Source of the DNA: Escherichia coli O127:H6 str. E2348/69
Lineage (GTDB): Bacteria; Pseudomonadota; Gammaproteobacteria; Enterobacterales; Enterobacteriaceae
Assembly: GCF_000026545.1 (NCBI RefSeq)
Contig: NC_011601.1
DNA length: 64,000 bases
Strand: one strand, 5' to 3'
A model generated the notes under the pieces. It was not told the DNA's origin and did not search any database. It saw only the letters and a list, made by a program, of their open reading frames with translations. Position 1 is the first letter of the stretch. Each line of letters starts with the position of its first letter. This document shows positions 32,139 to 44,075 of this stretch, in pieces. The position numbers and the translations under genes were made by a program.

Positions 32139-32171
32139 AAAAAAGGGCCAGCCAATTGGCCAGCCCTTCTT
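32139..32171. terminator. Bidirectional hairpin terminator (yfiB 3' end; original rplS terminator displaced to attL)
   Basis: gggccagccaattggccagccc palindrome flanked by an A-run upstream and T-rich sequence downstream. Confidence 0.6.
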
Positions 32172-32196: not shown

Positions 32197-32210
32197 TTAG
32201 TTAAGACGCT
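32197..32210. repeat. attL core of the P2-like prophage remnant
   Basis: ttagttaagacgct repeated exactly at 43725-43738, where it overlaps the rplS stop codon. Confidence 0.7.
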
Positions 32211-32295
32211 TTTACATGATACCATTGATAAACATGCATTTTTCATTATAAACAGTTAGTTATATGTATCACTAGTGTAGTCAAGTGCAGCCATA

Positions 32296-32305
32296 AACAT
32301 GCTGT
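32296..32305. promoter_or_regulatory. Candidate integrase arm-type binding site (TGTGGACACT)
   Basis: Same motif as the two copies near the other prophage end (43630-43650); resembles the P2 Int arm-site consensus as I recall it. Confidence 0.4.
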
Positions 32306-32323
32306 GTGGGCAGATTGTGGACA

Positions 32324-33253
32324 CTACTTATTTCCCTGTCCAATCTTACCCGCAACTGCCTCGGTAAGCTTTACTAAGGTTTCAAGTTCATTTTTGTCTA
32401 ATTTTCTTGCTTCAATAATTTCAGTAGTCTGCCCTGATTCTAGTTTTCCAACTCTTGAGCTAAAATTAATTTTATCCAGAAGGTCTATCATATCGATATC
32501 TTTCTGGCTAGCCATTACAAGCTTTATAATGGCATAGCTTTCCTCACGTGAACGTTTTATTGCCTCGTAATAGCGAAACTCATCCATCGTAACCCGATAT
32601 TGCTTCAAAAAGAAAAATGCGATTAACTCCAAGAAAATCAACACGCCAAAATTAGGGAGAAGATACATTACCTTGGTTACCGCATCATCCTTAGCATCAA
32701 TTACATGTGATTGAGAATAGAAGAAACCTAATCCAACTATTGCAAAACAAACACCGACTAATAAATAAAGACTACCGCGAGAATATATGTTTTTCGCAAG
32801 ACCTTCAGAGCTATTAATCAAACCTTTAAGATAAAAATCCAGAGATTCATCTTCATCAGCAGCAGCCCTTTCCTCTTGAGCCTTCTTGAGTAGTTTTATC
32901 TCATTTATAATATCGACAATATTAAACATCGATGATTTGTCGACTGAATCACTCCCTGTAATTCTCATAAACATTCTTTGGATTGGAGACACACCATAGA
33001 TAATGGTGTAAACGATTACAAATGACACTGCGAATATTGACCTGATAAAGCTCGGCAAATGTGTAAGATCTGCTCTCGCACTGGGAAATAAATAATAAAA
33101 GGTTGAGTCTAATATCCCTGTAGCAAAAATTACATTTGCAACTAGAAAGACTGCACCTATCTCAACTAAATTATAAAAACCACGAGTGCGTACCCTAATG
33201 ACTTTGGCCTCGGTCATTCTTGGAGGTGTTTCGATGGTTGGCTCACTCATCAT
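32324..33253 (-). CDS. Hypothetical 4-TM membrane protein (309 aa), phage cargo of unknown function
   Basis: ORF with four hydrophobic segments and a charged, probably coiled-coil C-terminal region; visibly AT-rich; AGGA RBS; ATG overlaps the integrase stop (ATGATGAGTGA). Confidence 0.6.
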   Translation of the reverse strand: MMSEPTIETPPRMTEAKVIRVRTRGFYNLVEIGAVFLVANVIFATGILDSTFYYLFPSARADLTHLPSFIRSIFAVSFVIVYTIIYGVSPIQRMFMRITGSDSVDKSSMFNIVDIINEIKLLKKAQEERAAADEDESLDFYLKGLINSSEGLAKNIYSRGSLYLLVGVCFAIVGLGFFYSQSHVIDAKDDAVTKVMYLLPNFGVLIFLELIAFFFLKQYRVTMDEFRYYEAIKRSREESYAIIKLVMASQKDIDMIDLLDKINFSSRVGKLESGQTTEIIEARKLDKNELETLVKLTEAVAGKIGQGNK

Positions 33254-33602
33254 ATAATCCTGTTAAATTAGAAATAGGGTTAAGAGTTACAGCTTCTTCT
33301 AAATGATCTGGTGCAAAATGAGCGTATCTCATGGTTTCCCTAATGTTAGAATGGCCCAAGATTCGTTGCAGTACTAAAATGTTCCCACCATTCATCATAA
33401 AGTGACTCGCAAATGTATGACGTAACACATTCGTTTTTTGCCCTTCAGCTAACTCTATATCGGTCAGAGCGAGCATTTTCTTGAACTCCTGATAGCAGGG
33501 GTGGAACATTTTTCCCTGTAAAGGAGCCAACTCGTCATATAGCCACCGAGGGATCGGTACTGTACGATTCTTCTTTCCCTTGGTTTGGGAGAAGGCTCTG
33601 CA
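33243..33602 (-). pseudogene. Tyrosine recombinase (phage integrase) C-terminal fragment
   Basis: ...TKGKKNRTVPIPRWLYDELAPLQGKMFHPCYQEF...RHTFASHFMMNGGNILVLQRILGHSNIRETMRYAHFAPDHLEEAV; the N-terminal two-thirds of the gene is absent. Confidence 0.8.
33568..33593. other. Left inversion crossover site (pix/gix/cix-like, 26 bp)
   Basis: ttcttctttcccTTggtttgggagaa; inner half-site is the exact inverted copy of the inner half of the right site at 35454-35479. Confidence 0.6.
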
Positions 33603-34079
33603 TTACCTGTTGGCGTCCCTGTTCCGTGGCCTTCAGCCACACCGCCAACAGGCTGGCTGAAATGCAATGGTGCAGCTTTTTCTGCTGAAGAATACCCGGA
33701 ACTGGCAAAGGCTTATCCGGCAAATAAATTGCCTGATTTACGTGGTGAGTTTATTCGTGGCTGGGATGACGGACGGGGGATTGATACAGGTCGCTCTATT
33801 TTAAGTATTCAGGGGTATGCAACGGAGGATCATGCTCATGGATTACCGTCAAGATCCACGATTGTGACTGATGCAACGATTAATTTCTATTTTGATGAAA
33901 GCTGGGTAAATAGTGGCACTGACATTATCAAAAGAGGAAACACAAACGATGCCGGATTACCAGCACCGGATTATGGAACCTTTAAAACATATAAACAATC
34001 AGTGGCTGGTTTAGGTGCCGCAGCCTCAGAAACGCGTCCGCGTAATATTGCATTTAACTATATCGTGAGGTCAGCCTGA
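33585..34079 (+). CDS. Tail fibre C-terminal variable domain (one invertible-segment orientation)
   Basis: ...GLGEGSALPVGVPVPWPSATPPTGWLKCNGAAFSAEEYPELAKAYP..., tail-collar-like C-terminus; no constant N-terminal tail-fibre part upstream. Confidence 0.7.
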   Translation: MGEGSALPVGVPVPWPSATPPTGWLKCNGAAFSAEEYPELAKAYPANKLPDLRGEFIRGWDDGRGIDTGRSILSIQGYATEDHAHGLPSRSTIVTDATINFYFDESWVNSGTDIIKRGNTNDAGLPAPDYGTFKTYKQSVAGLGAAASETRPRNIAFNYIVRSA

Positions 34080-34681
34080 TGCATAAAGCAATATTAAATA
34101 GTGAGCTTATTGCAACAAAGGCAGGGGATGTTACCGTTTATAACTACGATGGTGAAACACGGGAATATATTTCCACGTCAACTGAATATCTTGCGGTTGG
34201 CGTCGGTATCCCGGCATGTTCTTGTTTAGATGCGCCAGTTACACATAAAGCTGGTTATGCAATCTGCCGTTCTGCAGATTTTAACTCATGGGAATATGTG
34301 CCAGACCATCGCGGTGAAATCATCTATAGCACAGAAACAGGAGAATCGAAAGAAATCACAGCTCCGGGTGATTATCCTGAAAATACAACCACTATCGCCC
34401 CGTTAACGCCATACGATGAATGGGATGGTGAGAAATGGGTAACAGATACTGTGGCACAGCATAGCGCCGCAGTAGGCGCGGCAGAAGCACAGCGTCAGTC
34501 ACTGATTGATAATGCAATGGCTTCCATTAGTCTGATTCAGCTGAAATTGCAGGCCGGACGGAATCTGACGCAGGCAGAAACCGCCCGACTTAACGCTGCG
34601 CTGGATTACATTGACGCGGTGACGGCAACAGATACCAGCACCGCGCCGGATGTCATCTGGCCTGAACTGCCGGAGGCGTAG
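34079..34681 (+). CDS. Tail fibre assembly protein (Tfa)
   Basis: 200-aa ORF with the typical Tfa C-terminus (...RLNAALDYIDAVTATDTSTAPDVIWPELPEA). Confidence 0.8.
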   Translation: MHKAILNSELIATKAGDVTVYNYDGETREYISTSTEYLAVGVGIPACSCLDAPVTHKAGYAICRSADFNSWEYVPDHRGEIIYSTETGESKEITAPGDYPENTTTIAPLTPYDEWDGEKWVTDTVAQHSAAVGAAEAQRQSLIDNAMASISLIQLKLQAGRNLTQAETARLNAALDYIDAVTATDTSTAPDVIWPELPEA

Positions 34682-35093
34682 GCCATTCAATATCTGGCGC
34701 ACCGGAAGTATCGACCAGTTCCAGTGCGTCCAGATAATCCAGCCACAAATTATATTGCGCCAGTTCCTCACCTTTCAGACGACCAATAGCCGCTTTACCA
34801 GGCCATTGTTTACTGTTCATATAATCGTTGGCCTGATTAATCAGTTGCTGCTTTTCAAGTTCGGCTGCAGCAATCTGTTCCTCATGTGTTGGTGGTGGAA
34901 TTTCAGTCCATGCAGGAAAACTATTTTCTCCAGCGATACGGATTTTTCCTTTCGGCGGTAATCCGGAAAACTCAATATACACTTGCTCATCAACTTCAAC
35001 AGCATCATCTGGCCATGAGTCAGCTTGAGTGTAATCCTCTTTCATCTCCAGCGGATAGAAAGAGTTTGTAGTCGCGGAATATATGTAATTCAT
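34653..35093 (-). CDS. Tail fibre assembly protein, alternative (opposite orientation)
   Basis: 146-aa ORF ending ...YNLWLDYLDALELVDTSGAPDIEWPTPPAVQAR, convergent with the other tfa. Confidence 0.8.
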   Translation of the reverse strand: MNYIYSATTNSFYPLEMKEDYTQADSWPDDAVEVDEQVYIEFSGLPPKGKIRIAGENSFPAWTEIPPPTHEEQIAAAELEKQQLINQANDYMNSKQWPGKAAIGRLKGEELAQYNLWLDYLDALELVDTSGAPDIEWPTPPAVQAR

Positions 35094-35114
35094 TTTTCAC
35101 TCCATATAGCTAAA

Positions 35115-35480
35115 TTAACAGCCTAACGCTAAAAATGAAGCGCCGAGGCCAGGAGTACTGGCTCTGGATATAAATTTAACCGGGTCGGGACTAAAACCTG
35201 CACAGGCAATATAACCAACAGCCCCGCTATCTGGTGTGTAGTCTTGTGAGACCAAAACACGCAGACATCTGTTTGGAAATGCAATCGGGAAATGGGTTAC
35301 TACATCCTGTGCAATGCCTGGTGCGCCGATTGAGCCCCACTGAAGAATAAAACCTGATGGAAATTTTTGATATCCAGTACCTGAAACAGAAAGCGTGAAG
35401 CTACCCATATCAGGTATCTGATTCGCCCCTGTCCCTACATTCCTTTTAGCCGCTTCTCCCAAACCAACGTTTAAGAAAAT
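35115..35480 (-). CDS. Alternative tail fibre C-terminal variable domain
   Basis: Reverse ORF 35115..35564 reads ...[17 protein letters not shown]... across the right crossover site; the part inside the invertible segment ends near 35480. Confidence 0.65.
35454..35479. other. Right inversion crossover site (pix/gix/cix-like, 26 bp)
   Basis: ttctcccaaaccAAcgtttaagaaaa, imperfect dyad, immediately upstream of the invertase gene. Confidence 0.65.
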
Positions 35481-35533
35481 GTAGTTTTCCCCCCTAGCTG
35501 GCATCATTTGGGCTTTTGCATGAGGGAAAACAA

Positions 35534-36112
35534 ATGCAGGTTGGCTATGTGCGCGTATCAACAAATGAACAAAATACCGCGCTACAGCGTGACGCGCTGG
35601 AACGGTCGGGATGTGAGCTAATTTTCGAGGATAAAATCAGCGGTAAATCGACAAACAGGCCAAGGTTAAATCGCGCACTCAGGCAACTTAATGCCGGTGA
35701 TACTCTCGTTGTCTGGAAGCTCGACAGGCTCGGGCGTAGCATGCGCCATCTTGTCTCTATGACTGAAGAGCTTCGCCAGCGAGGGGTTAATTTCAGAAGC
35801 CTGACCGACAGTATTGATACCTCAACCCCGATGGGGCGATTTTTCTTTCACATCATGGGCGCTCTTGCAGAAATGGAACGCGAGTTAATCGTCGAACGAA
35901 CCCGCGCCGGGCTGGATGCAGCCCGGGCACAAGGCAGGATCGGAGGTCGTAGGCCGAAGCTGACGCCTGATGAATGGGCTCAGGCTGGCCGGTTGATTGC
36001 GGCCGGAGAATCCCGACAGCGTGTTGCACTGATTTTTGATGTGGGCATATCGACGCTGTATAAAAAATTTCCGGCGACAAATCCCGTTGTGTCAGCCACC
36101 GGCGAACCCTGA
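35534..36112 (+). CDS. Serine-recombinase DNA invertase (Pin/Gin/Hin/Cin family)
   Basis: [38 protein letters not shown]... with catalytic Ser in the VRVST motif and a C-terminal HTH. Confidence 0.9.
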
Positions 36113-36176
36113 CAAATAGCCGCATACAGGCGTAAACCAGACAATATCACTCACCTCAACTAACGGAGTTAAACGG

Positions 36177-37364
36177 ATGAGTGATTATCATCACGGTGTC
36201 GAGGTCGTCGAAATTAACGACGGCACCCGCACAATCTCGACGGTATCAACGGCGGTCGTTGGCATGGTCTGCACAGCCAGTGATGCTGACGCCGGGGCTT
36301 TCCCTCTCAATGAGCCGGTGCTGATTACCAACCCACAAAGCGCCATCGCAAAAGCCGGTACTAAAGGTACCCTGGCAAAATCCTTACAGCTCATCGCTAA
36401 CCAGTCAAAACCGGTTGTCGTTGTTGTGCGTGTCGCGGAGGGTACCGGCGACGGCGAAGAGGCACAGGCGCAAACCATTTCTAACATCATCGGCACCACG
36501 AATGAGAATGGCAAATATACCGGGATGAAAGCGCTGTTAACGGCGAAAGCGGTCACCGGCGTGAAGCCACGTATTCTCGGTGTGCCGGGGCTCGATACTC
36601 AGGAGGTGGCGACCGCGCTTGTCTCCGTGGCTCAGAAGCTGCGCGCTTTCGCCTATGTCAGCGCGTGGGGCTGTAAAACCATTGCTGACGTTATCGCCTA
36701 CCGCGAAAACTTCAGCGCCCGTGAGCTCATGATTATCTGGCCTGACTTCCTCGGGTGGGATACCACGGCCAACGCGACCACAACCAGTTATGCAACAGCG
36801 ATCGCGTTGGGACTGCGCGCAAAAATCGACAATGATACAGGCTGGCATAAAACCCTGTCAAACGTCGGCATCAATGGCGTCACCGGTATCAGTGCGTCGG
36901 TCTTCTGGGATTTGCAGGAATCTGGCACTGATGCCGACCTGCTGAATGAGGCCGGTGTTACGACGCTGATTCGTGCCGATGGTTTCCGCTTCTGGGGTAA
37001 CCGTAATTGCTCCGATGACCCGCTGTTTCAGTTTGAGAACTACACCCGCACCGCACAGGTCATAGCCGACACAATAGCCGAGGGGCATATGTGGGCGAAC
37101 GATAAGCCCATCACCGCGACGTTGATTCGCGACATTATCGACGGCATCAACGCGAAATTCCGCGAGCTGAAAACCGGCGGTTACATCATCGATGCGACGT
37201 GCTGGTTTGACGAAGAGGCCAACAGTAAAGAAACCCTGAAAGCCGGGAAACTGTTTATCGATTATGACTATACGCCGGTGCCGCCACTCGAACACCTGAC
37301 CTTACGCCAGCGCATTACTGATAAATATCTGGCGAATCTTATCTCGTCCGTCAACAGCAAATAA
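36177..37364 (+). CDS. Contractile tail sheath protein (P2 gpFI-like)
   Basis: 395-aa ORF MSDYHHGVEVVEINDGTRTISTVSTAVVGMVCTASDAD..., order and size as P2 FI. Confidence 0.9.
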   Translation: MSDYHHGVEVVEINDGTRTISTVSTAVVGMVCTASDADAGAFPLNEPVLITNPQSAIAKAGTKGTLAKSLQLIANQSKPVVVVVRVAEGTGDGEEAQAQTISNIIGTTNENGKYTGMKALLTAKAVTGVKPRILGVPGLDTQEVATALVSVAQKLRAFAYVSAWGCKTIADVIAYRENFSARELMIIWPDFLGWDTTANATTTSYATAIALGLRAKIDNDTGWHKTLSNVGINGVTGISASVFWDLQESGTDADLLNEAGVTTLIRADGFRFWGNRNCSDDPLFQFENYTRTAQVIADTIAEGHMWANDKPITATLIRDIIDGINAKFRELKTGGYIIDATCWFDEEANSKETLKAGKLFIDYDYTPVPPLEHLTLRQRITDKYLANLISSVNSK

Positions 37365-37376
37365 GGAGCCTGACAA

Positions 37377-37895
37377 ATGGCATTACCGCGCAAGCTCAAA
37401 CTCATGAACCTGTTTATCGATGGGGTGAGTTATCTCGGCGTCGTGCAGTCCGTCACGCTGCCGAAATTAACCCGCAAGCTCGAGAACTATCGCGGCGGCG
37501 GGATGAATGGTTCGGCACCGGTCGACCTCGGCCTCGATGACGATGCGCTGTCGGCTGAAATCTCTCTCGGCGGCTTCCCCGATGACGCTATCTGGTCGTT
37601 ATACGCTGCCACCGGCGCGGCCTCCGTACCGCTACGTTTTGCCGGGTCTTACCAGCGTGATGACACCGGCGAGACCGTGCCGGTTGAGGTTGTTCTCCGT
37701 GGCCGTCAGAAAGAAATCGACCTCGGTGAAGCCAAACAGGGCGAAGACACCGAGTCGAAAATCGCTCTCGCGTGTACCTATTTCAAGCTGACGATGAATG
37801 GCTCGGAACTGGTGGAAATCGACACCGTGAACCTCATCGAAAAAGTGAACGGCACCGACATGCTCGAGGCGCACCGACAAAATATCGGCCTGTAA
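37377..37895 (+). CDS. Tail tube protein (P2 gpFII-like)
   Basis: 172-aa ORF MALPRKLKLMNLFIDGVSYLGVVQSVTLPKL... Confidence 0.9.
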   Translation: MALPRKLKLMNLFIDGVSYLGVVQSVTLPKLTRKLENYRGGGMNGSAPVDLGLDDDALSAEISLGGFPDDAIWSLYAATGAASVPLRFAGSYQRDDTGETVPVEVVLRGRQKEIDLGEAKQGEDTESKIALACTYFKLTMNGSELVEIDTVNLIEKVNGTDMLEAHRQNIGL

Positions 37896-37957
37896 TTTAT
37901 GCCCCGGTCAGCATGGCTGGCCGGGCATCCTGAAACCAGAATTTAACGAGAAATATC

Positions 37958-38230
37958 ATGGATAAAACTAACGAAAATATCGTCACTCTGATTAAACCCA
38001 TTAAGCGCGGTGAGCAGGTTATTACTGACGTCACCCTGTTAAAACCGTGTGCCGGAACCCTTCGCGGTGTCAGCCTGGCATCAGTCGCAAACTCTGACGT
38101 CGATGCGCTGATTAAAGTGCTGCCGCGCATGACCATGCCGTCGCTGACCGAGCAGGAAGCCGCCGCACTGGAGCTGCCCGACCTGCTGTCGTTTGCCGGT
38201 AAGGTGGTCGGTTTTTTGTCACCGAGTTAG
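37958..38230 (+). CDS. Tail assembly chaperone gpE
   Basis: 90-aa ORF between FII and T; contains the slippery heptamer T-TTT-TTG at 38212-38218. Confidence 0.8.
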   Translation: MDKTNENIVTLIKPIKRGEQVITDVTLLKPCAGTLRGVSLASVANSDVDALIKVLPRMTMPSLTEQEAAALELPDLLSFAGKVVGFLSPS

Positions 38231-38391
38231 GCGGCGTAATCTTCCCGCAAAAACTCACGGTCGATGACCTGATGGCTGACATAGCGGTAATTTTCCACTG
38301 GTCGCCATCAGACCTGTATCCCATGAGCCTGACCGAACTCGTCAACTGGCGCGAAAAAGCGCTACAGCGAAGCGGAAACACGAATGAGTAA
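37958..38391 (+). CDS. gpE+E' extended product via programmed -1 frameshift (predicted)
   Basis: -1 frame after TTTTTTG is open to TAA at 38389-38391, overlapping the start of the tape-measure gene. Confidence 0.5.
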
Positions 38392-40813
38392 TAACCTCAA
38401 ACTCGAAGTGCTGCTGAAAGCTGTCGACCAGGCGACCCGACCCTTTAAAGCGATCCAGACGGCGAGCAAATCGCTGTCTGGCGATATCCGCACGACTCAG
38501 CAATCCCTGCGTGATTTGAATGGTCAGGCATCGAAAATCGACGGTTTTCGCAAAACCAGCGCACAACTGGCGGTAACCGGACAGGCACTGGAAAAGGCAA
38601 AACAGGAAGCCGCCGAGCTGGCGGTGCAGTTTAAAAACACGGAACGGCCAACGGCGGCACAGGCCAGAGTGCTGGAATCAGCAAAGCGTTCGGCTGAAGG
38701 GTTACAGGCAAAATATAACAGCCTCACCCAATCGGTGAAGCGGCAACAGACCGAGCTCGGCAAAGCGGGGATTAATACGCGCAATCTGTCGAATGATGAA
38801 AGCCGCCTGAAAAACTCTATCAATGAAACTACCGCACAACTTAACCGCCAGCGTGAAGCACTGGCGCGGGTCAGCGCGCAACAGGCAAAACTCAGCGCAG
38901 TACAAAAACGCTATCAGGCAGGAAAGGCACTGGCTGGAAATGCGGCATCGATGGGCGCTGCCGGGATAGGCATGGCAACGACCGGAGCGCTTGCCGGTGT
39001 TGCACTGATGAAGCCCGGTTATGATTTTGCTCAGAAAAACTCTGAGTTACAGGCCGTTCTCGGTGTCGGTAAAGACTCAGCTGATATGGTGGCGCTCCGC
39101 AAACAGGCGCGCCAGCTCGGTGACAACACCGCCGCGTCGGCTGATGATGCTGCCGGTGCTCAGATTATTATTGCAAAGGCTGGCGGCGATGCTGCGGCTA
39201 TTCAGGCCGCTACCCCCGTAACACTCGATATGGCGCTCGCAAACCGTCGAACGATGGAAGAGAACGCCGGGTTATTGATGGGGATGCGCTCTGCCTTCCA
39301 GCTTTCAAACGATAAGGTCGCCCATATCGGTGATGTTCTGTCGATGACGATGAACAAAACCGCCGCCGACTTTGACGGCCTGAGTGATGCGCTGACTTAT
39401 GCCGCGCCGGTGGCGAAAAATGCCGGGGTCAGCATCGAAGAAACAGCCGCAATGGTCGGCGCACTGCATGACGCCAAAATTACGGGATCGATGGCGGGTA
39501 CGGGGAGCCGTGCCGTATTAAGTCGCCTGCAGGCTCCAACGGGCAAAGCGTATGACGCCATTAAAGAGCTCGGCGTCAAAACGGCTGATGGTAAGGGGAA
39601 CACACGTCCAATATTTACCATCCTGAAAGAAATGCAGCGGAGTTTTGATAAAAACAACCTCGGCACCGGCCAGCGTGCCGAATATATGAAAACCATTTTC
39701 GGTGAAGAGGCCAGCTCGTCGGCTGCGGTACTCATGACCGCTGCCTCGAGCGGGAAATTAGACCAGCTTACCGCTTCCCTTAAAGCATCGGATGGCAAAA
39801 CCGCTGAGCTGGTGAAGGTCATGCAGGATAACCTCGGCGGCGATTTTAAAGAGTTTCAGTCTGCGTATGAAGCGGTAGGAACCGACCTGTTTGACCAGCA
39901 AGAGTCATCATTAAGAAAGCTGGTACAAACGACGACAGGGTATGTATTGAGGCTCGATAGCTGGATCCAAAAGAACAAATCTCTTGCCACCACGCTGGGT
40001 GTCATTACGGCGGCAGCTGTCGGTATTGTGGGGATGATTGGTGCCATTGGCCTTGTATCGTGGCCGGTAATTACTGGCATTAACGCCATCATTTCGGCGG
40101 CTGGTGCGCTTGGTGCGGTCTTTACGACAATCAGTGGCGGGGTCATTGCGGCTATTGGTGCTATTACGTGGCCTGTCGTGGCGGTAGCGGCGGCTGTTGT
40201 CGCTGGCGCGCTGCTTATCCGTAAATACTGGGAGCCTGTCAGCGCATTCTTTGCCGGTGTGGTCGAGGGGCTCATGAGTGCCTTTGCGCCGGTCGGGGAA
40301 ATGTTCGCCCCGCTGGCACCCATTTTCGACGGTCTCGGCGAAAAACTTCGCGGCGTCTGGCAGTGGTTTAAAGACCTGATAGCGCCGGTGAAAGCGACTC
40401 AGGACACGCTCAACAGTTGTCGTGATGTTGGGGTTATGTTCGGTCAGACGCTGGCCGATGCACTGCTGATGCCGCTTAACGCCTTTAACAAGCTGCGAAG
40501 CGGGATTGACTGGGTGCTCGAAAAACTCGGCATTATCAACAAAGAATCCAGCTCACTTGACCAGACTGCGGCGAAAGCCAATGCAGCGACGCAGAACGGT
40601 TACAGCCCGGCAATCAGCGCATACAACAGCTATCAGCCGGTCACGGCACCCGCCGGTAAAACCTACATCGACCAGAGTCGGCCAATCTATCAAATCACCG
40701 TGCCGGGCAATGGTATGCCGGGAGATCGGTTGGGTAATGATTTGCAGGATGCATTAGAAAAGTATGAGCGCGAGAAGCGCGCCAAAGCCCGCGCAAGCAT
40801 GATGCATGACTAA
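38384..40813 (+). CDS. Tail tape measure protein (P2 gpT-like)
   Basis: 809-aa ORF with coiled-coil N-terminus and Gly/Ala-rich hydrophobic central region. Confidence 0.9.
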   Translation: MSNNLKLEVLLKAVDQATRPFKAIQTASKSLSGDIRTTQQSLRDLNGQASKIDGFRKTSAQLAVTGQALEKAKQEAAELAVQFKNTERPTAAQARVLESAKRSAEGLQAKYNSLTQSVKRQQTELGKAGINTRNLSNDESRLKNSINETTAQLNRQREALARVSAQQAKLSAVQKRYQAGKALAGNAASMGAAGIGMATTGALAGVALMKPGYDFAQKNSELQAVLGVGKDSADMVALRKQARQLGDNTAASADDAAGAQIIIAKAGGDAAAIQAATPVTLDMALANRRTMEENAGLLMGMRSAFQLSNDKVAHIGDVLSMTMNKTAADFDGLSDALTYAAPVAKNAGVSIEETAAMVGALHDAKITGSMAGTGSRAVLSRLQAPTGKAYDAIKELGVKTADGKGNTRPIFTILKEMQRSFDKNNLGTGQRAEYMKTIFGEEASSSAAVLMTAASSGKLDQLTASLKASDGKTAELVKVMQDNLGGDFKEFQSAYEAVGTDLFDQQESSLRKLVQTTTGYVLRLDSWIQKNKSLATTLGVITAAAVGIVGMIGAIGLVSWPVITGINAIISAAGALGAVFTTISGGVIAAIGAITWPVVAVAAAVVAGALLIRKYWEPVSAFFAGVVEGLMSAFAPVGEMFAPLAPIFDGLGEKLRGVWQWFKDLIAPVKATQDTLNSCRDVGVMFGQTLADALLMPLNAFNKLRSGIDWVLEKLGIINKESSSLDQTAAKANAATQNGYSPAISAYNSYQPVTAPAGKTYIDQSRPIYQITVPGNGMPGDRLGNDLQDALEKYEREKRAKARASMMHD

Positions 40814-40824
40814 GGAGACTGATT

Positions 40825-41289
40825 ATGATGCTGGCATTAGGTATGTTTGTTTTTATGCGTCAGACGCTGCCCTACCAGAGCATGCAGCGCAGCGCGGATT
40901 ATAGCTGGGCGTCAAACTCTCGCATCGGGAAGCGTGACGCTTTTCAGTATCTCGGCGAGGGGGAAGATAAAATCACCCTGAGCGGTGACCTGTATCCTGA
41001 GCTGACCGGCGGTAAGCTCACGATGCTGGCGCTTTATGCAATGGCTGAACAGGGGCGCGCATGGCCGCTTATCTCTGGCTCAGGCTGGATTTACGGGATG
41101 TTTGTTGTCAGTAATGTCTCGGAGACCGGCACGGTATTTTTTGAGGATGGGACGCCACGAAAAATCAGCTTCACCCTGTCACTGACCCGTGTCGATGAGT
41201 CGCTCGCCGCGGTGTATGGCGATATTGGAAAACAGGCCGAAAGTCTGGTCGGGAAAGCTGGCGATCTGCTGTCGATGGTGGGGGCGTAA
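40825..41289 (+). CDS. Tail protein gpU-like
   Basis: 154-aa ORF MMLALGMFVFMRQTLPYQSMQRSADYSWAS... following T. Confidence 0.85.
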   Translation: MMLALGMFVFMRQTLPYQSMQRSADYSWASNSRIGKRDAFQYLGEGEDKITLSGDLYPELTGGKLTMLALYAMAEQGRAWPLISGSGWIYGMFVVSNVSETGTVFFEDGTPRKISFTLSLTRVDESLAAVYGDIGKQAESLVGKAGDLLSMVGA

Positions 41290-41291
41290 TC

Positions 41292-42464
41292 ATGCTGGAT
41301 ATTATCACCGGCGCGGGTGCCACGCTGACGCCCGACTTTATGCTGACACTGGAAAGCAAAGATATCACCGGCAATATCAGTGACCGGCTGATTAACCTCT
41401 CGATGACGGACAATCGGGGTTTTGAGGCCGACCAGCTCTACATCGAGCTCGACGATACTGACGGTCTGGTCGCATTGCCGATTCGCGGTGCGGTGCTGTC
41501 GCTGTATCTCGGGTGGAAAGGTTTCTCTCTGGTCAGCAAGGGGCGATTTACCGTCGATGAGGTAGAGCACCGGGGGGCGCCGGATACGGTAACCATTCGC
41601 GCCCGGGGTGCGGATTTTCGCGGGACGCTTAATTCCCGTCGTGAGGAGTCATGGCATGACACCACGCTCGGCGCAATCGTCAGCTCGATAGCTGAGCGGA
41701 ACAAGTTAACGGCCAGCGTCACTGATTCTCTTGCGGGGATCCAGATTCCGCATATCGACCAGTCTCAGGAATCCGACGCCGTTTTCCTGACTCGCCTCGC
41801 AGAACGCAACGGCGGTGCGGTCTCAGTGAAAGCGGGTAGATTGCTGATGCTCAAAGCGGGAAGCGGTACCACTGCCAGTGGAAAAGCTATTCCTCAAATT
41901 ACCATCCAGCGCGGTGACGGTGACCGGCATCAGTTTGCCATTGCCGACCGTGGCGCTTACACCGGCGTAACCGCTAAGTGGCTGCACACTAAAGACCCGA
42001 AACCGGCGAAACAAAAGCAGACAGTGAAGCTGAAACGTAAGCCCAAAGAGCAACACCTCCGGGCGCTACAGCACCCGAAAGCAAAACCAGTGAGCAGTAA
42101 AGTCACGGCCAAAAAGCAAAAAGAGCAGGAAGCCCGCGAGGGTGAATACATGGCCGGTGAGGCTGACAACGTTTTCGCGCTGACGACCATTTACGCGACA
42201 AAGGCGCAAGCGATGCGTGCAGCTCAGGCGAAGTGGGATAAATTGCAGCGTGGGGTTGCGGAGTTCTCCATTATGTTAGCGACCGGCCGCGAGGATATTT
42301 ACCCCGAAACGCCGGTCAGGGTCTCAGGCTTTAAGAGCGTTATAGACGAGCAAGCATGGATAATCAGCAGGGTGACCCATAATCTCGGTGGGAATGGCTT
42401 CACAACGGCTGTAGAGCTTGAGGTGATGCTTTCGGATGTAGAATATGACACCGACGAATCTTGA
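41292..42464 (+). CDS. Tail protein gpD-like (late control gene D)
   Basis: 390-aa ORF following U. Confidence 0.85.
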   Translation: MLDIITGAGATLTPDFMLTLESKDITGNISDRLINLSMTDNRGFEADQLYIELDDTDGLVALPIRGAVLSLYLGWKGFSLVSKGRFTVDEVEHRGAPDTVTIRARGADFRGTLNSRREESWHDTTLGAIVSSIAERNKLTASVTDSLAGIQIPHIDQSQESDAVFLTRLAERNGGAVSVKAGRLLMLKAGSGTTASGKAIPQITIQRGDGDRHQFAIADRGAYTGVTAKWLHTKDPKPAKQKQTVKLKRKPKEQHLRALQHPKAKPVSSKVTAKKQKEQEAREGEYMAGEADNVFALTTIYATKAQAMRAAQAKWDKLQRGVAEFSIMLATGREDIYPETPVRVSGFKSVIDEQAWIISRVTHNLGGNGFTTAVELEVMLSDVEYDTDES

Positions 42465-42540
42465 TTATACAAACAAAACTTGCAAATGTAAGATTCAAGT
42501 TTATTATCCCCCTCAAGTCAGCAAGGAGAGGGAAGAAATT

Positions 42541-42759
42541 ATGATGCACTGTCCGCTATGTCAGGATGCAGCACACGCACGATCAAGCCGGTACCTGAGC
42601 ACTGAAACGAAAGAGCGCTACCACCAGTGCCAGAACATCAACTGCGGTTGCACTTTCGTCACCCACGAGAGCCTTGCTCGTTTTATCGTGAAGCCAGGAG
42701 AAATTGAACCCGCCCCACCCCACCCGTCTAAATACCAACAACATCAGCTCTGGCTTTAA
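42541..42759 (+). CDS. ogr: Late-gene transcription activator Ogr (zinc finger)
   Basis: MMHCPLCQDAAHARSSRYLSTETKERYHQCQNINCGCTF... with a Cys4 arrangement; ATG at 42541 preceded by aaggagag. Confidence 0.9.
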   Translation: MMHCPLCQDAAHARSSRYLSTETKERYHQCQNINCGCTFVTHESLARFIVKPGEIEPAPPHPSKYQQHQLWL

Positions 42760-42796
42760 ATCAAAGGCCTGCTTTGCAGGCCTTCTTGTATCAAAC

Positions 42797-43519
42797 TTAG
42801 ATTGGTAATGAAAAAGCTATCGCCTTGCAGATATGTTGCTTTGTTAACGCAGGATGTGTTGAAGCAAAAAGCGATAAAAAGCTTTTAGCTTCAACCGAAT
42901 CATCATTAAGCGAAATATTATCTTTGATGAATGGATGAAGTGCGATTCCAGCGCTCATAGATAACGGCACATAGTTGATGAATATATCTTCTTTTGTGAG
43001 ACCTAGCTGGTTTGCTTGTGCTTCAAATGAATTAGCATCTAAATAATCACGTATACGTTCTTTGGCCTCTGGTCGGAGTCTCGATTCTTGACGCGGCAGA
43101 GAAAGCATCTTATCAATATCTCCCCATGAGATAGGAACCTCAAAATAGCCACCACCTTCTTCCTCTAGAGGTGCCGGGAAATTCACATAAAAATAGTTTT
43201 TTTGCTGTGTAGGGTCGTTCATGGACTGACGATGATAGTTATAAATACTTCTAATACGGTTGGCCTTGTTATGATGCCGAGCATTTCGAATAACAAGCAT
43301 CATTAATAATTCAGGTTTCAAATACCAGTCAGGCTCTAATCCATTGCTTTGCATGTTGTCATACAAATTATGAAAAGCATTAAGTTGTGTATTCAGGCCC
43401 GATTCTAAATTGCCAATTGCTTCAGCACGATCAATAGCCAACAAACGCTGTAGTGACCAGTTAGACTCTAATAAAACCCGAAAGGCCTGTGCAAGATCTT
43501 CAAAAGAGTGGGAAAGCAT
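42797..43519 (-). CDS. Hypothetical soluble protein (240 aa), phage cargo; possible HEPN-like Rx4H motif
   Basis: AT-rich ORF with AAGGA RBS between ogr and attR; contains ...LVIRNARHHNKANR... (R-x4-H pattern). Confidence 0.6.
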   Translation of the reverse strand: MLSHSFEDLAQAFRVLLESNWSLQRLLAIDRAEAIGNLESGLNTQLNAFHNLYDNMQSNGLEPDWYLKPELLMMLVIRNARHHNKANRIRSIYNYHRQSMNDPTQQKNYFYVNFPAPLEEEGGGYFEVPISWGDIDKMLSLPRQESRLRPEAKERIRDYLDANSFEAQANQLGLTKEDIFINYVPLSMSAGIALHPFIKDNISLNDDSVEAKSFLSLFASTHPALTKQHICKAIAFSLPI

Positions 43520-43629
43520 CCTTTACGTCCTTATACGCACATTCATGAGATTTCAGTGTAAACCAAAAGTACTAAACTAACAGTATCAGGTAGATGATGG
43601 ATAGATGGGCTGGCAAGTATTCTATCTGC

Positions 43630-43650
43630 GTGGACACTCTATGGACACTC
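43630..43650. promoter_or_regulatory. Candidate integrase arm-type sites (two direct copies of TGGACACTC)
   Basis: gtggacactctatggacactc; same motif as 32296-32305 at the other prophage end. Confidence 0.4.
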
Positions 43651-43686
43651 AAAATAAAAAAGGGGTTAGCTCTACGCTAACCCCTT
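43651..43686 (-). terminator. Rho-independent terminator now serving rplS (prophage-encoded)
   Basis: aggggttagctctacgctaacccct hairpin with T-run on the transcribed strand, about 40 bp downstream of the rplS stop, on the prophage side of attR. Confidence 0.7.
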
Positions 43687-43724
43687 GTTTTATAACACGC
43701 TTTGGATGTGGCGTGAACGCGTTA

Positions 43725-44075
<351 letters not shown>

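What the first reader, a model, noticed from the sequence alone, without database searches (positions are those of the whole stretch)
32324..33253. AT-rich 4-TM membrane protein, translationally coupled to the integrase remnant, next to attL
The 309-aa ORF has four hydrophobic helices and a charged C-terminal domain. It is clearly AT-richer than the tail genes, and its ATG overlaps the integrase stop (ATGATGAGTGA), so it would be co-transcribed with int. P2 and P4-like prophages are known to carry anti-phage cargo at defined variable loci (P2 old, tin, fun/Z); whether this att-proximal position is such a locus is not established. I recognise no family for this protein. A superinfection-exclusion or abortive-infection membrane effector is a reasonable hypothesis, but it rests on context alone.
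Basis: inference. Interest (0 to 1): 0.75.

Follow-up and report, generated by a model that had tools for sequence, protein, structure and literature searches.

The report
Prophage membrane gene, likely anti-phage cargo
This is a real, strongly conserved gene for a four-helix inner-membrane protein that 186-type (P2-like) prophages carry as optional cargo between their integrase and the attachment site; it belongs to a large undescribed family found in phage cargo slots and bacterial defence islands, so it is a good but untested candidate for a new single-gene anti-phage protein.

Summary
ORF 32324-33253 (-) encodes 309 aa with four hydrophobic helices. It has 37% GC against about 55% in the tail genes. 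Its start overlaps the stop of a truncated integrase, and it ends 113 bp from attL.

The window is E. coli E2348/69. An 11.5-kb remnant of a 186-type prophage sits in the 3' end of rplS, bounded by a 14-bp att repeat.

The protein matches no Pfam, NCBIfam or PADLOC family, only the unannotated phrog_5157. It belongs to a family of at least 1,200 clusters at 50% identity across several phyla, under purifying selection (dN/dS 0.08).

Family members are always solo genes. They fill at least five different cargo slots in temperate phages. Elsewhere they sit beside Lamassu, AbiJ-like, SIR2-like, PD-T4-6-like and type IV restriction genes.

In the rplS-integrating phage lineage, alleles only 37-57% identical occupy the same slot. 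A related prophage has the slot empty. At least three heavily decayed remnants (E. coli, Enterobacter, Citrobacter) still keep the gene intact.

MotA/ExbB homology was tested and rejected. Resemblance to SLATT two-helix pore effectors is weak.

Best reading: a lysogen-expressed membrane defence effector, either abortive-infection or exclusion type. This is unproven. In E2348/69 itself the native cI promoter is deleted, so expression here is uncertain.

The parts
32324..33253 (-). ORF309, a 309-aa predicted inner-membrane protein (RefSeq WP_001294850.1 starts at 33250). It is accessory cargo of the prophage.
32351..32851 (-). Conserved family core, residues 135-301. It comprises an amphipathic helix, TM3 (G167xxxA171xxG174), a short outer loop, TM4 (P200, G203, buried E209), the juxtamembrane motif KQYRxxMDEFRYYEAIKRSREE, and a small helical C-terminal domain.
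   Evidence: alignments; matched ranges; AF2 pLDDT 82-92 over residues 141-250
33113..33169 (-). TM1 (residues 29-47); its sequence is variable across the family
32981..33037 (-). TM2 (residues 73-91)
32720..32776 (-). TM3 (residues 160-178), with invariant G167 and G174
32606..32662 (-). TM4 (residues 198-216), with near-invariant P200, G203 and E209 and invariant F215
33243..33593 (-). Integrase remnant (C-terminal catalytic part only). Its stop overlaps the ORF309 start by 11 nt.
32197..32210 (.). attL core TTAGTTAAGACGCT, a duplicated copy of the rplS 3' end
32211..32323 (.). 113-bp phage arm between attL and the ORF309 stop. Its length is conserved (113-126 bp) in every related locus with enough sequence. 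It holds an outward-facing promoter-like site at 32272-32245 (-).
32140..32171 (-). Bacterial yfiB/rplS hairpin terminator. It is the first strong - strand terminator after ORF309.
43725..43738 (.). attR core, which is the true 3' end of rplS. The prophage remnant spans 32211-43724.
42797..43519 (-). ORF240, a second AT-rich (39% GC) cargo gene on the other side of attP. It has no known family and is inherited independently of ORF309.

Best explanation
ORF309 is an accessory ('moron') gene of a 186-type temperate phage that integrates into the 3' end of rplS.

In intact prophages it is the last gene of the compact cI-int-ORF309 unit, so it would be made in lysogens. This follows from gene order and the lack of an intervening strong terminator; it is an inference, not a measurement.

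The product is an N-in/C-in four-helix inner-membrane protein. Its conserved part is a two-helix hairpin with a glycine-zipper-like face and a buried glutamate, followed by a strongly conserved cytoplasmic helix and a small helical domain.

My best guess at function is a self-contained anti-phage effector. I propose that the cytoplasmic part senses an infection cue. The hairpins of several subunits would then form or open an ion-conducting pore. This would collapse the membrane potential and abort the infection, protecting the lysogen population and the resident prophage.

Shown here: the gene is real, constrained, membrane-embedded, optional phage cargo, and keeps company with defence genes. 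Inferred: expression in lysogeny, oligomeric pore formation, the trigger, and the anti-phage phenotype itself.
For: Real and constrained:
- At least 1,201 clusters at 50% identity match at E<=1e-3.
- dN/dS is 0.08 against the Citrobacter orthologue.

Optional cargo:
- It lies inside the att-bounded element.
- A related rplS prophage in strain E21 has only 172 bp between int and yfiB and carries no such gene.
- Only 16 of 5,426 complete E. coli genomes carry it.

Fixed slot with swapped alleles:
- Six intact 186-type proviruses carry homologues 37-47% identical to ORF309.
- Their start overlaps the int stop by 4-20 nt, and their GC is 32-37% against 44-47% for int.
- The att core lies 113-126 bp after the stop in all seven loci with enough sequence.

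Other phage cargo slots:
- CI-int (L022), which matches the cI-int hotspot described for K139-like phages in PMC9122126.
- gpS-gpV (L024, L025, L027), where strain 1190 carries a DUF4062 gene.
- Repressor to gpD (L013, L030).
- Lambdoid Rz to nu1.
- Beside the lysis genes, as the last phage-side gene called.

Defence neighbours outside phages:
- Lamassu LmuB and CTD7/MC3.
- A PD-T4-6-like kinase, a reverse transcriptase and an OLD-TOPRIM protein.
- An AbiJ-like protein and CcdB.
- A SIR2-like protein.
- SRA-McrA and a PD-T7-4-like protein.
- Type I-F cas genes nearby.

Retention after prophage decay:
- Enterobacter keeps ORF240, a 136-bp int fragment and the homologue.
- Citrobacter keeps a roughly 2-kb att-bounded remnant holding only int residues 228-339 and the homologue.
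- A second Citrobacter locus has a 77-aa int fragment before the orthologue on a 2.1-kb contig.

Membrane effector features:
- Invariant G167 and G174; near-invariant P200, G203 and E209 in TM4.
- A confident long helical hairpin in the AF2 model.
- Weak but repeated structural or profile echoes of two-helix conflict-system effectors: DUF4231/SLATT and TIR-2TM proteins in AFDB50, SLATT proteins in BFVD, and sub-threshold CyanoTRADDas_TM hits (3 members of alignment A1 and 4 of A2).

Literature:
- The int-att position is a minor P2 defence hotspot.
- Transmembrane proteins in known systems are generally regarded as suicide effectors (PMC9122126).
Against: - There is no experimental phenotype for any family member. 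The accession appears in no searchable paper.
- No PADLOC, Pfam or NCBIfam model matches. The only family hit is the unannotated phrog_5157.
- The SLATT-like similarity is not statistically convincing. No SLATT model appears even at E<=10 in NCBIfam.
- The protein has no partner gene, whereas SLATT-type effectors usually depend on a signalling partner.
- A position in the lysogeny module and allele swapping in a fixed slot are equally typical of non-lethal superinfection exclusion.
- No homologue was found in 50,697 deposited phage genomes or 72,556 plasmids.
- In E2348/69 the cI/pL region is deleted and no promoter-like site was found upstream on the - strand. The copy in this window may be silent.
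Confidence: 0.35

Rival explanations
1. Superinfection exclusion without cell death. The protein sits in the inner membrane of the lysogen and blocks genome entry of incoming phages, as P22 SieA, T4 Imm, HK97 gp15 and lactococcal Sie2009 do. It would do this by occupying or altering the membrane component used for DNA translocation.
For: - It is the last gene of the cI-int unit in intact prophages, or lies between CI and int (L022). From my knowledge, that is the classical place for sie genes of temperate phages.
- It is predicted to be an inner-membrane protein.
- It is always a solo gene.
- Strongly divergent alleles occupy one slot, as expected if specificity tracks competing phages.
- Its persistence as a solo gene in remnants suggests it is harmless to the host.
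Against: - The most conserved parts are the intramembrane hairpin and the cytoplasmic motif, not the outward-facing loops.
- The family spans Proteobacteria, Bacteroidota and Cyanobacteria. It also sits in non-phage defence islands. Both are unusual for exclusion proteins, which are usually narrow in range and phage-bound.
- There is no homology to any annotated exclusion protein in PHROGs.
Confidence: 0.25
2. A lysogenic-conversion or phage-lifecycle membrane factor unrelated to defence. Examples would be an ion or stress-homeostasis channel that benefits the host, or a modulator of lysis or induction timing.
For: - It is retained in chromosomes long after the phage is gone and is under strong purifying selection. 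Both fit any host-beneficial function.
- In two prophages it lies next to the lysis cassette.
- Many hotspot cargo genes are not defence genes; PMC9122126 notes plasmid-partition systems and toxins in P2 hotspots.
Against: - It repeatedly neighbours recognised defence genes outside prophages.
- It has the opposite orientation to the lysis genes in the Alcaligenes and Serratia prophages, and its size and architecture are not holin-like.
- It has no transporter or enzyme signature.
Confidence: 0.15
3. A divergent MotA/ExbB/TolQ-type proton channel (a stator-like unit) that uses the membrane potential to do work, as ZorA does in the Zorya defence system.
For: - The topology is MotA-like: TM1, TM2, a long cytoplasmic loop, TM3, TM4 and a cytoplasmic tail.
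- TM4 has a buried acidic residue.
- One family member in AFDB50 (A0A1G3GWC8) carries the UniProt name 'MotA/TolQ/ExbB proton channel domain-containing protein'.
Against: - None of the sequences in the two alignments scanned one by one (55 and 101, with some overlap) match Pfam MotA_ExbB, even at E<=0.1.
- A family profile finds no MotA, ExbB or TolQ chain in the PDB at E<=10.
- hhalign against a TolQ/ExbB alignment gives a probability of 0.3%.
- No MotB/ExbD/TolR/ZorB-like partner gene lies beside it in any locus examined.
Confidence: 0.03
4. An addiction or toxin gene that stabilises the prophage by killing cells that lose it.
For: A membrane protein with pore-like features, at the edge of a mobile element.
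Against: - There is no adjacent antitoxin gene or conserved small partner in any locus.
- The gene persists intact in remnants where nothing is left to stabilise.
- It is expressed as the last cistron of the repressor operon rather than as a separate module.
Confidence: 0.04

Closest known systems
SLATT (SMODS- and SLOG-associating 2TM effector; DUF4231) and related two-helix effector modules of conflict systems (TIR-2TM, CyanoTRADDas_TM)
   Same: Both have a two-helix membrane hairpin flanked by a preceding amphipathic helix and a following conserved cytoplasmic helix. Both occur in defence islands and mobile elements. Weak fold and profile echoes were seen.
   Different: There is no significant sequence or profile match. 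ORF309 has an extra N-terminal helix pair and its own C-terminal domain. It is never fused to, or next to, a conserved signalling enzyme.
Lambda RexB and other membrane suicide effectors of abortive-infection systems (CBASS and Pycsar transmembrane effectors)
   Same: A prophage-encoded four-helix inner-membrane protein expected to be made in lysogens. The proposed action is dissipation of the membrane potential.
   Different: RexB needs the sensor RexA, whereas ORF309 is solo. ORF309 matches none of the PADLOC-DB models; I expect these to cover the known membrane effectors, but I did not check the model list. It is about twice the size of RexB (from my knowledge).
Superinfection-exclusion membrane proteins of temperate phages (P22 SieA, lactococcal Sie2009, HK97 gp15, T4 Imm)
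   Same: A solo inner-membrane protein encoded in or next to the lysogeny module, and variable between related phages.
   Different: There is no detectable homology. Conservation is concentrated on the membrane and cytoplasmic sides. The family reaches far beyond one phage-host pair.
P2 hotspot cargo (old, tin, fun/Z and the systems of Rousset et al. 2022, PMC9122126)
   Same: An AT-rich optional gene in a small slot between conserved anchors of a P2-family prophage. The same family also occurs in the gpS-gpV slot and the cI-int slot.
   Different: The position is int-att, reported only as a minor hotspot holding about 3% of P2 defence systems (bioRxiv 10.64898/2026.02.27.708500). In this phage lineage the slot, when filled, held only members of this one family in the 12 loci examined, rather than a mixture of systems.
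phrog_5157 (PHROGs, unknown function)
   Same: It is the only library family hit. Nine of ten diverse members and the family consensus match it at E 1e-5 to 5e-9, over the hairpin plus C-terminal region.
   Different: It is a sister family of about 331 positions with only modest scores, and it carries no functional annotation.

Membership tests
Accessory (moron / hotspot cargo) gene of a P2/186-type prophage | Lies inside the att-bounded element | tested here: met
   The 14-bp core occurs at 32197-32210 and 43725-43738. Both junctions were confirmed against the empty site in strain SK1144.
Accessory (moron / hotspot cargo) gene of a P2/186-type prophage | Dispensable: closely related phages lack it | tested here: met
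   Strain E21 has a 186-type prophage at the same rplS site with 172 bp between int and yfiB and no such gene. Only 16 of 5,426 E. coli genomes carry it.
Accessory (moron / hotspot cargo) gene of a P2/186-type prophage | Variable content between conserved anchors, with atypical base composition | tested here: met
   Alleles 37-57% identical lie between the int stop and the att arm. GC is 32-37% against 44-47% for int and about 55% for tail genes.
Described anti-phage defence families (PADLOC-DB v2.0.0) | Significant match to a defence-protein model | tested here: not met
   The only hit is Cas5a at E 0.0015 and 16.7 bits. The matching NCBIfam Cas5a model scores the same, below its curated cut-off of 23 bits. 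I judge it spurious.
Described anti-phage defence families (PADLOC-DB v2.0.0) | Reduces phage infection when expressed | not testable with these tools
   This needs cloning and a phage challenge.
SLATT / DUF4231 two-helix effector superfamily | Two-helix hairpin flanked by an N-terminal and a C-terminal helix | tested here: met
   The AF2 model has helices 134-182 and 191-248 with pLDDT of 82-92.
SLATT / DUF4231 two-helix effector superfamily | Significant sequence or profile match to SLATT models | tested here: not met
   There is no SLATT or DUF4231 hit in Pfam for the query or for the sequences of either alignment scanned one by one. There is none in NCBIfam at E<=10.
SLATT / DUF4231 two-helix effector superfamily | Fold match | tested here: inconclusive
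SLATT / DUF4231 two-helix effector superfamily | Fusion to, or operon with, a signalling or sensor enzyme (SMODS, SLOG, TIR) | tested here: not met
   No conserved neighbour was seen across about 40 loci. All family members are about 230-440 aa and have no extra domains.
MotA/ExbB/TolQ proton-channel family (PF01618) | Match to PF01618 or to solved family members | tested here: not met
   No sequence of either alignment matches at E<=0.1. The PDB profile search is empty of them. hhalign gives a probability of 0.3%.
MotA/ExbB/TolQ proton-channel family (PF01618) | Adjacent single-helix partner (MotB/ExbD/TolR/ZorB type) | tested here: not met
   No such neighbour is present in any locus examined.
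Superinfection-exclusion proteins of temperate phages | Encoded in or next to the lysogeny module and co-oriented with the repressor | tested here: met
   CI, int and ORF309 lie on one strand, with a 4-bp gap between CI and int and an 8-nt overlap between int and ORF309 by the RefSeq starts. There is no strong terminator before the bacterial one. This does not hold in E2348/69, where cI is deleted.
Superinfection-exclusion proteins of temperate phages | Blocks DNA entry of incoming phage without killing the cell | not testable with these tools
   This needs infection assays.
Gtr O-antigen modification cassette (the classical int-att cargo of P22- and SfV-type phages) | GtrA flippase or GT2 glycosyltransferase domains | tested here: not met
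   There is no glycosyltransferase or GtrA Pfam hit.

The most novel reading that the evidence does not exclude
ORF309 would found a large, undescribed family (at least 1,200 clusters at 50% identity, spanning several phyla) of self-contained sensor-plus-pore membrane proteins that form a new single-gene anti-phage system. Temperate phages would shuttle it between at least five cargo slots. Enterobacteria would have repeatedly domesticated it at the rplS locus by letting the rest of the prophage decay around it.
Probability: 0.35. Interest if true: 0.65.

Novelty: new variant of a known kind. Interest (0 to 1): 0.5.

Why it matters
If the prediction holds, it adds a widespread single-gene membrane defence family that current annotation (PADLOC v2, Pfam, NCBIfam) does not recognise.

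It would also give a concrete occupant for the little-studied int-att slot of P2-family phages.

It offers a clean natural example of a prophage cargo gene surviving as a chromosomal gene after the phage has decayed. This has happened independently in E. coli, Enterobacter and Citrobacter at the same rplS site.

The gene is small and solo. It has obvious mutational targets (E209, G167, G174 and the RYYE motif), so the hypothesis is cheap to test.

Tried and rejected
- **MotA/ExbB/TolQ homology.** The topology and one UniProt name in AFDB50 suggested it. I rejected it because no alignment member matches PF01618, the PDB profile search found none, and hhalign gave 0.3%.
- **The Cas5a hit** in PADLOC and NCBIfam (16.7 bits, below the cut-off). 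I treat it as spurious.
- **ORF309 and ORF240 as a two-gene system split by phage integration.** The adjacent pair in Enterobacter suggested this. I rejected it for three reasons:
  - The att repeats enclose both genes.
  - The Enterobacter spacer contains an int fragment, so that locus is a collapsed prophage.
  - The two genes occur on different viral contigs, and distant ORF309 homologues never have an ORF240 neighbour.
- **A profile search of the 5.8-billion-protein set** with a 101-sequence alignment returned only family members with no Pfam annotation.
- **Searches of deposited phage genomes and plasmids** found nothing.
- **Literature searches** for the accession and for E2348/69 P2-like remnants found nothing.
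- **An internal promoter in the retained int 3' segment.** The alignment of remnants shows coding conservation only, and no promoter-like site was found there.
- **A Gtr-type O-antigen modification gene.** No glycosyltransferase or GtrA domain is present.
Full report
**Where the window comes from.** The window is identical to E. coli E2348/69 (EPEC O127:H6) around yfiB and rplS.

Most E. coli genomes have only about 76 bp between yfiB and rplS. E2348/69 has an 11.5-kb insertion there.

A 14-bp direct repeat, TTAGTTAAGACGCT, lies at 32197-32210 and at 43725-43738. The second copy is the 3' end of rplS. Alignment with the empty site of strain SK1144 places both junctions exactly at this core.

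Reading along the + strand, the element between the repeats contains:
- ORF309 (-)
- an integrase fragment (-)
- an invertible tail-fibre segment with its invertase
- the tail genes: sheath, tube, tape measure, U and D
- an ogr-like regulator
- a second AT-rich ORF of 240 aa (-), lying next to rplS

Thirteen other complete E. coli genomes carry the same two end genes on a full-length prophage. Its CI, CII, Fil and replication genes mark it as 186-type.

**The observation.**
- The ORF is 309 aa; RefSeq annotates 308 aa as WP_001294850.1, 'hypothetical protein'.
- Its GC content is 37%, against 50% for the window and 55-57% for sheath and tube.
- It has four strongly hydrophobic 19-residue segments: residues 29-47, 73-91, 160-178 and 198-216.
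- It has a charged C-terminal 90 residues.
- Its ATG overlaps the int stop by 11 nt (ATGATGAGTGA).
- Its stop lies 113 bp from the attL core.

At this base composition an open frame of this length has a chance probability of roughly 1e-9 to 1e-10. This is my own estimate from the composition.

**A real and large family without a name.**
- Pfam, NCBIfam and PADLOC give nothing credible. The 16.7-bit Cas5a hit is below the curated cut-off.
- The only library family matched is phrog_5157, which has no known function. The query, the family consensus and nine of ten diverse relatives all hit it.
- A word-indexed search found 117 homologues.
- An exhaustive HMMER scan of 1.84 billion cluster representatives found 1,201 at E<=1e-3 and 89 at E<=1e-30.
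- Members are 230-440 aa long and carry no additional domains.
- Named sources include many Enterobacterales, Pseudomonas, Alcaligenes, Variovorax, Chromobacterium, Sphingomonas, Methylobacter, Flavobacterium and a cyanobacterial genome assembled from a metagenome.

The conserved unit is residues 135-301. It consists of an amphipathic helix running into TM3, a short outer loop, TM4, the motif KQYRxxMDEFRYYEAIKRSREE, and a small helical domain with a GxTTExxExxKL signature.
- Invariant residues: G167, G174, F215 and R234.
- Near-invariant residues include P200, G203 and a glutamate in the middle of TM4, E209.

The first two helices are hydrophobic but variable in sequence.

Against the 86%-identical Citrobacter orthologue, dS is 0.83 and dN/dS is 0.08. 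The protein is therefore under strong purifying selection.

**Cargo behaviour in phages.** A scan of IMG/VR found 22 viral loci encoding a family member. In ten of them the gene's 3' end lies within about 500 bp of the contig end.

Several positions were seen:
- **int-att.** Eight loci show the order repA, CII | CI, int, homologue, end; one of them (L022) instead has the homologue between CI and int.
- **gpS-gpV.** Three P2-type contigs carry the gene between gpS and gpV. In strain 1190 this same slot holds a DUF4062 gene.
- **Repressor to gpD.** Two P2-type elements carry it between the repressor region and gpD.
- **Lambdoid moron site.** A Serratia lambdoid prophage has it between Rz/LysC and nu1.
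- **Beside the lysis genes.** An Alcaligenes prophage has it next to the lysis genes, as the last phage-side gene called.
- **Next to int and xis.** A Chromobacterium prophage has it a few genes from int and xis.

Within the rplS-integrating 186-type lineage the slot is sharply bounded.
- In six intact proviruses the homologue is only 37-47% identical to ORF309.
- It still starts 4-20 nt before the int stop and is 32-37% GC.
- In all seven loci with enough downstream sequence, the att core follows the stop codon by 113-126 bp.

The slot can also be empty. E. coli E21 carries a 186-type prophage at the same att site with nothing between int and yfiB, and nothing between ogr and rplS.

The gene is therefore optional cargo, and its alleles are exchanged within a fixed frame.

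**Published context.** Rousset et al. 2022 (PMC9122126) described a hotspot of anti-phage systems in P2-like phages (the locus of old and tin). They also described a cI-int hotspot in K139-like phages. [quoted passage not shown]

**Company outside phages.** Where the gene is not in a recognisable prophage, its neighbours are often defence genes:
- Lamassu LmuB with CTD7/MC3 conflict-system components in Pseudomonas
- a PD-T4-6-like kinase, a reverse transcriptase and a PRTase/OLD-TOPRIM protein in Flavobacterium
- an AbiJ-like protein and CcdB in Marinobacterium
- a SIR2-like protein downstream of a prophage repressor in Sphingomonas
- SRA-McrA and a PD-T7-4-like DUF4145 protein in Chromobacterium
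- type I-F cas genes a few kilobases away in Methylobacter

No neighbour is conserved across these loci. The gene is a solo unit.

**Survival in decayed prophages.** Three further remnants keep the gene.
- **Enterobacter hormaechei.** The same rplS-yfiB site holds, between att-core copies, only an IS200-like fragment, a 90%-identical ORF240, 136 bp of the int 3' end, and a 318-aa family member.
- **A Citrobacter lineage.** A roughly 2-kb att-bounded remnant holds only int residues 228-339 and a 277-aa member.
- **A second Citrobacter locus.** A 77-aa int fragment precedes the 86%-identical orthologue; only a 2.1-kb contig is available.

E2348/69 is a fourth, less advanced case. Repeated loss of everything except this gene, with its upstream piece of int, argues that the host benefits from keeping it.

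**A caveat for this window.** In intact relatives CI, int and ORF309 are contiguous on one strand. Face-to-face promoter-like sites lie at the CI/CII boundary, as in 186. The first strong - strand terminator is the bacterial hairpin beyond attL. Expression in lysogens is therefore a reasonable inference for those prophages.

In E2348/69 the deletion fused the int fragment to the tail-fibre inversion segment and removed cI and its promoter. No promoter-like site is predicted upstream on the - strand. Whether this particular copy is transcribed is unknown.

**Fold and remote homology.** AlphaFold2 with a 55-sequence alignment gives mean pLDDT 75.6 and pTM 0.60. Two very long helices (134-182 and 191-248) form a confident hairpin through the membrane.

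- **AFDB50.** Foldseek against AFDB50 first returns family members, one of which UniProt names a MotA/TolQ/ExbB domain protein. A weaker tier follows at E 1e-4 to 1e-2. It includes a DUF4231 (SLATT) protein and two TIR-domain proteins.
- **BFVD.** Two SLATT-annotated viral proteins appear at E 0.35-0.41.
- **Pfam.** Scanning the alignment members one by one gives a single recurring sub-threshold hit, the TRADD-N-associated two-helix domain CyanoTRADDas_TM. It appears in 3 members of the first alignment and 4 of the second, at E<=0.1.
- **NCBIfam.** No SLATT model appears even at E<=10.

I tested the MotA/ExbB idea directly:
- No member of either alignment hits PF01618.
- The family profile finds no such chain in the PDB.
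- hhalign against a TolQ/ExbB alignment gives 0.3% probability.
- No MotB-like partner gene exists in any locus.

I reject that idea. The SLATT-like resemblance is a lead, not a membership.

**Mechanism.** I commit to the following, with modest confidence. The protein is a lysogen-expressed, self-contained anti-phage effector of the inner membrane.

The glycine-zipper-like face of TM3 and the buried glutamate in TM4 suggest that hairpins from several subunits pack into an ion-conducting assembly. The invariant cytoplasmic helix and the C-terminal domain are the likely sensing or gating part. Opening would dissipate the membrane potential and abort the infection.

The main rival is non-lethal superinfection exclusion at the DNA-entry step. 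That fits the position in the lysogeny module and the allele swapping equally well. It fits less well with the cross-phylum conservation of intramembrane and cytoplasmic residues, and with the gene's presence in non-phage defence islands.

A non-defence conversion function cannot be excluded. A stator-like proton channel and an addiction toxin are unlikely.

**Novelty and verdict.** The finding is real and is more than a one-off hypothetical gene. It is a large unannotated family with the full behavioural signature of defence cargo.

In kind it is not new, because prophage membrane effectors are well known. No phenotype is shown for any member.

I rate it a new variant of a known kind, with interest 0.5. 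The experiments needed to test it are simple.

Noticed in passing
window 42797-43519 (-): ORF240 is a second AT-rich (39% GC) cargo gene between the ogr-like regulator and attR, on the other side of attP from ORF309. It matches no Pfam, PADLOC or PHROG family. A 90%-identical copy is retained in the Enterobacter remnant. It lies at the very end of most of the 7 IMG/VR contigs that carry it, none of which carries an ORF309 homologue. It is an independent candidate cargo or defence gene.
   Followed up: partly
window 32245-32272 (-): A promoter-like site (GTGATA-16-TATAAT, 10 of 12 matches) lies after the ORF309 stop and points outward through attL. In the circular phage genome it would point across attP towards ORF240. 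ORF240 could therefore be expressed differently from excised and integrated DNA.
   Followed up: no
window 33585-36112: The int remnant is fused directly to an invertible tail-fibre segment. The segment has two opposed pairs of tail-fibre tip and assembly genes (33585-34681 +, 34653-35564 -) and a Gin/Pin-type serine invertase (35516-36112 +). The large deletion that made the remnant ends inside this segment.
   Followed up: no
window 43653-43724: The phage arm next to attR carries its own hairpin terminator and about 70 bp that imitate the native sequence downstream of rplS. After integration, rplS is therefore terminated by phage DNA. Sixty-odd other E. coli genomes match this arm at 90-95% identity. 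The one examined (strain E21) carries a related rplS prophage.
   Followed up: partly
L002 22492-24158 and L038 13777-15120 (E. coli strain 1190, intact relative): The intact prophage has further unannotated cargo. Two proteins (327 and 228 aa) lie in the gpA-portal hotspot, and a 447-aa DUF4062 protein lies between gpS and gpV. None matches PADLOC. Its replication gene carries an internal stop.
   Followed up: partly
L053 28817-29221 (E. coli strain E21): This 186-type prophage at the same rplS att site has empty int-att and ogr-att slots, but carries a 134-aa unknown ORF between CI and int.
   Followed up: no
L007 6667-6904 (Enterobacter hormaechei): An IS200/IS605-like transposase fragment lies between the rplS terminator and ORF240 in the collapsed prophage remnant. 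I identified it by eye from the translated sequence and did not verify it.
   Followed up: no
window about 23918-24873: A frameshifted IS4-family transposase pseudogene lies between bamD and raiA. This comes from the RefSeq annotation of the matching E2348/69 record.
   Followed up: no
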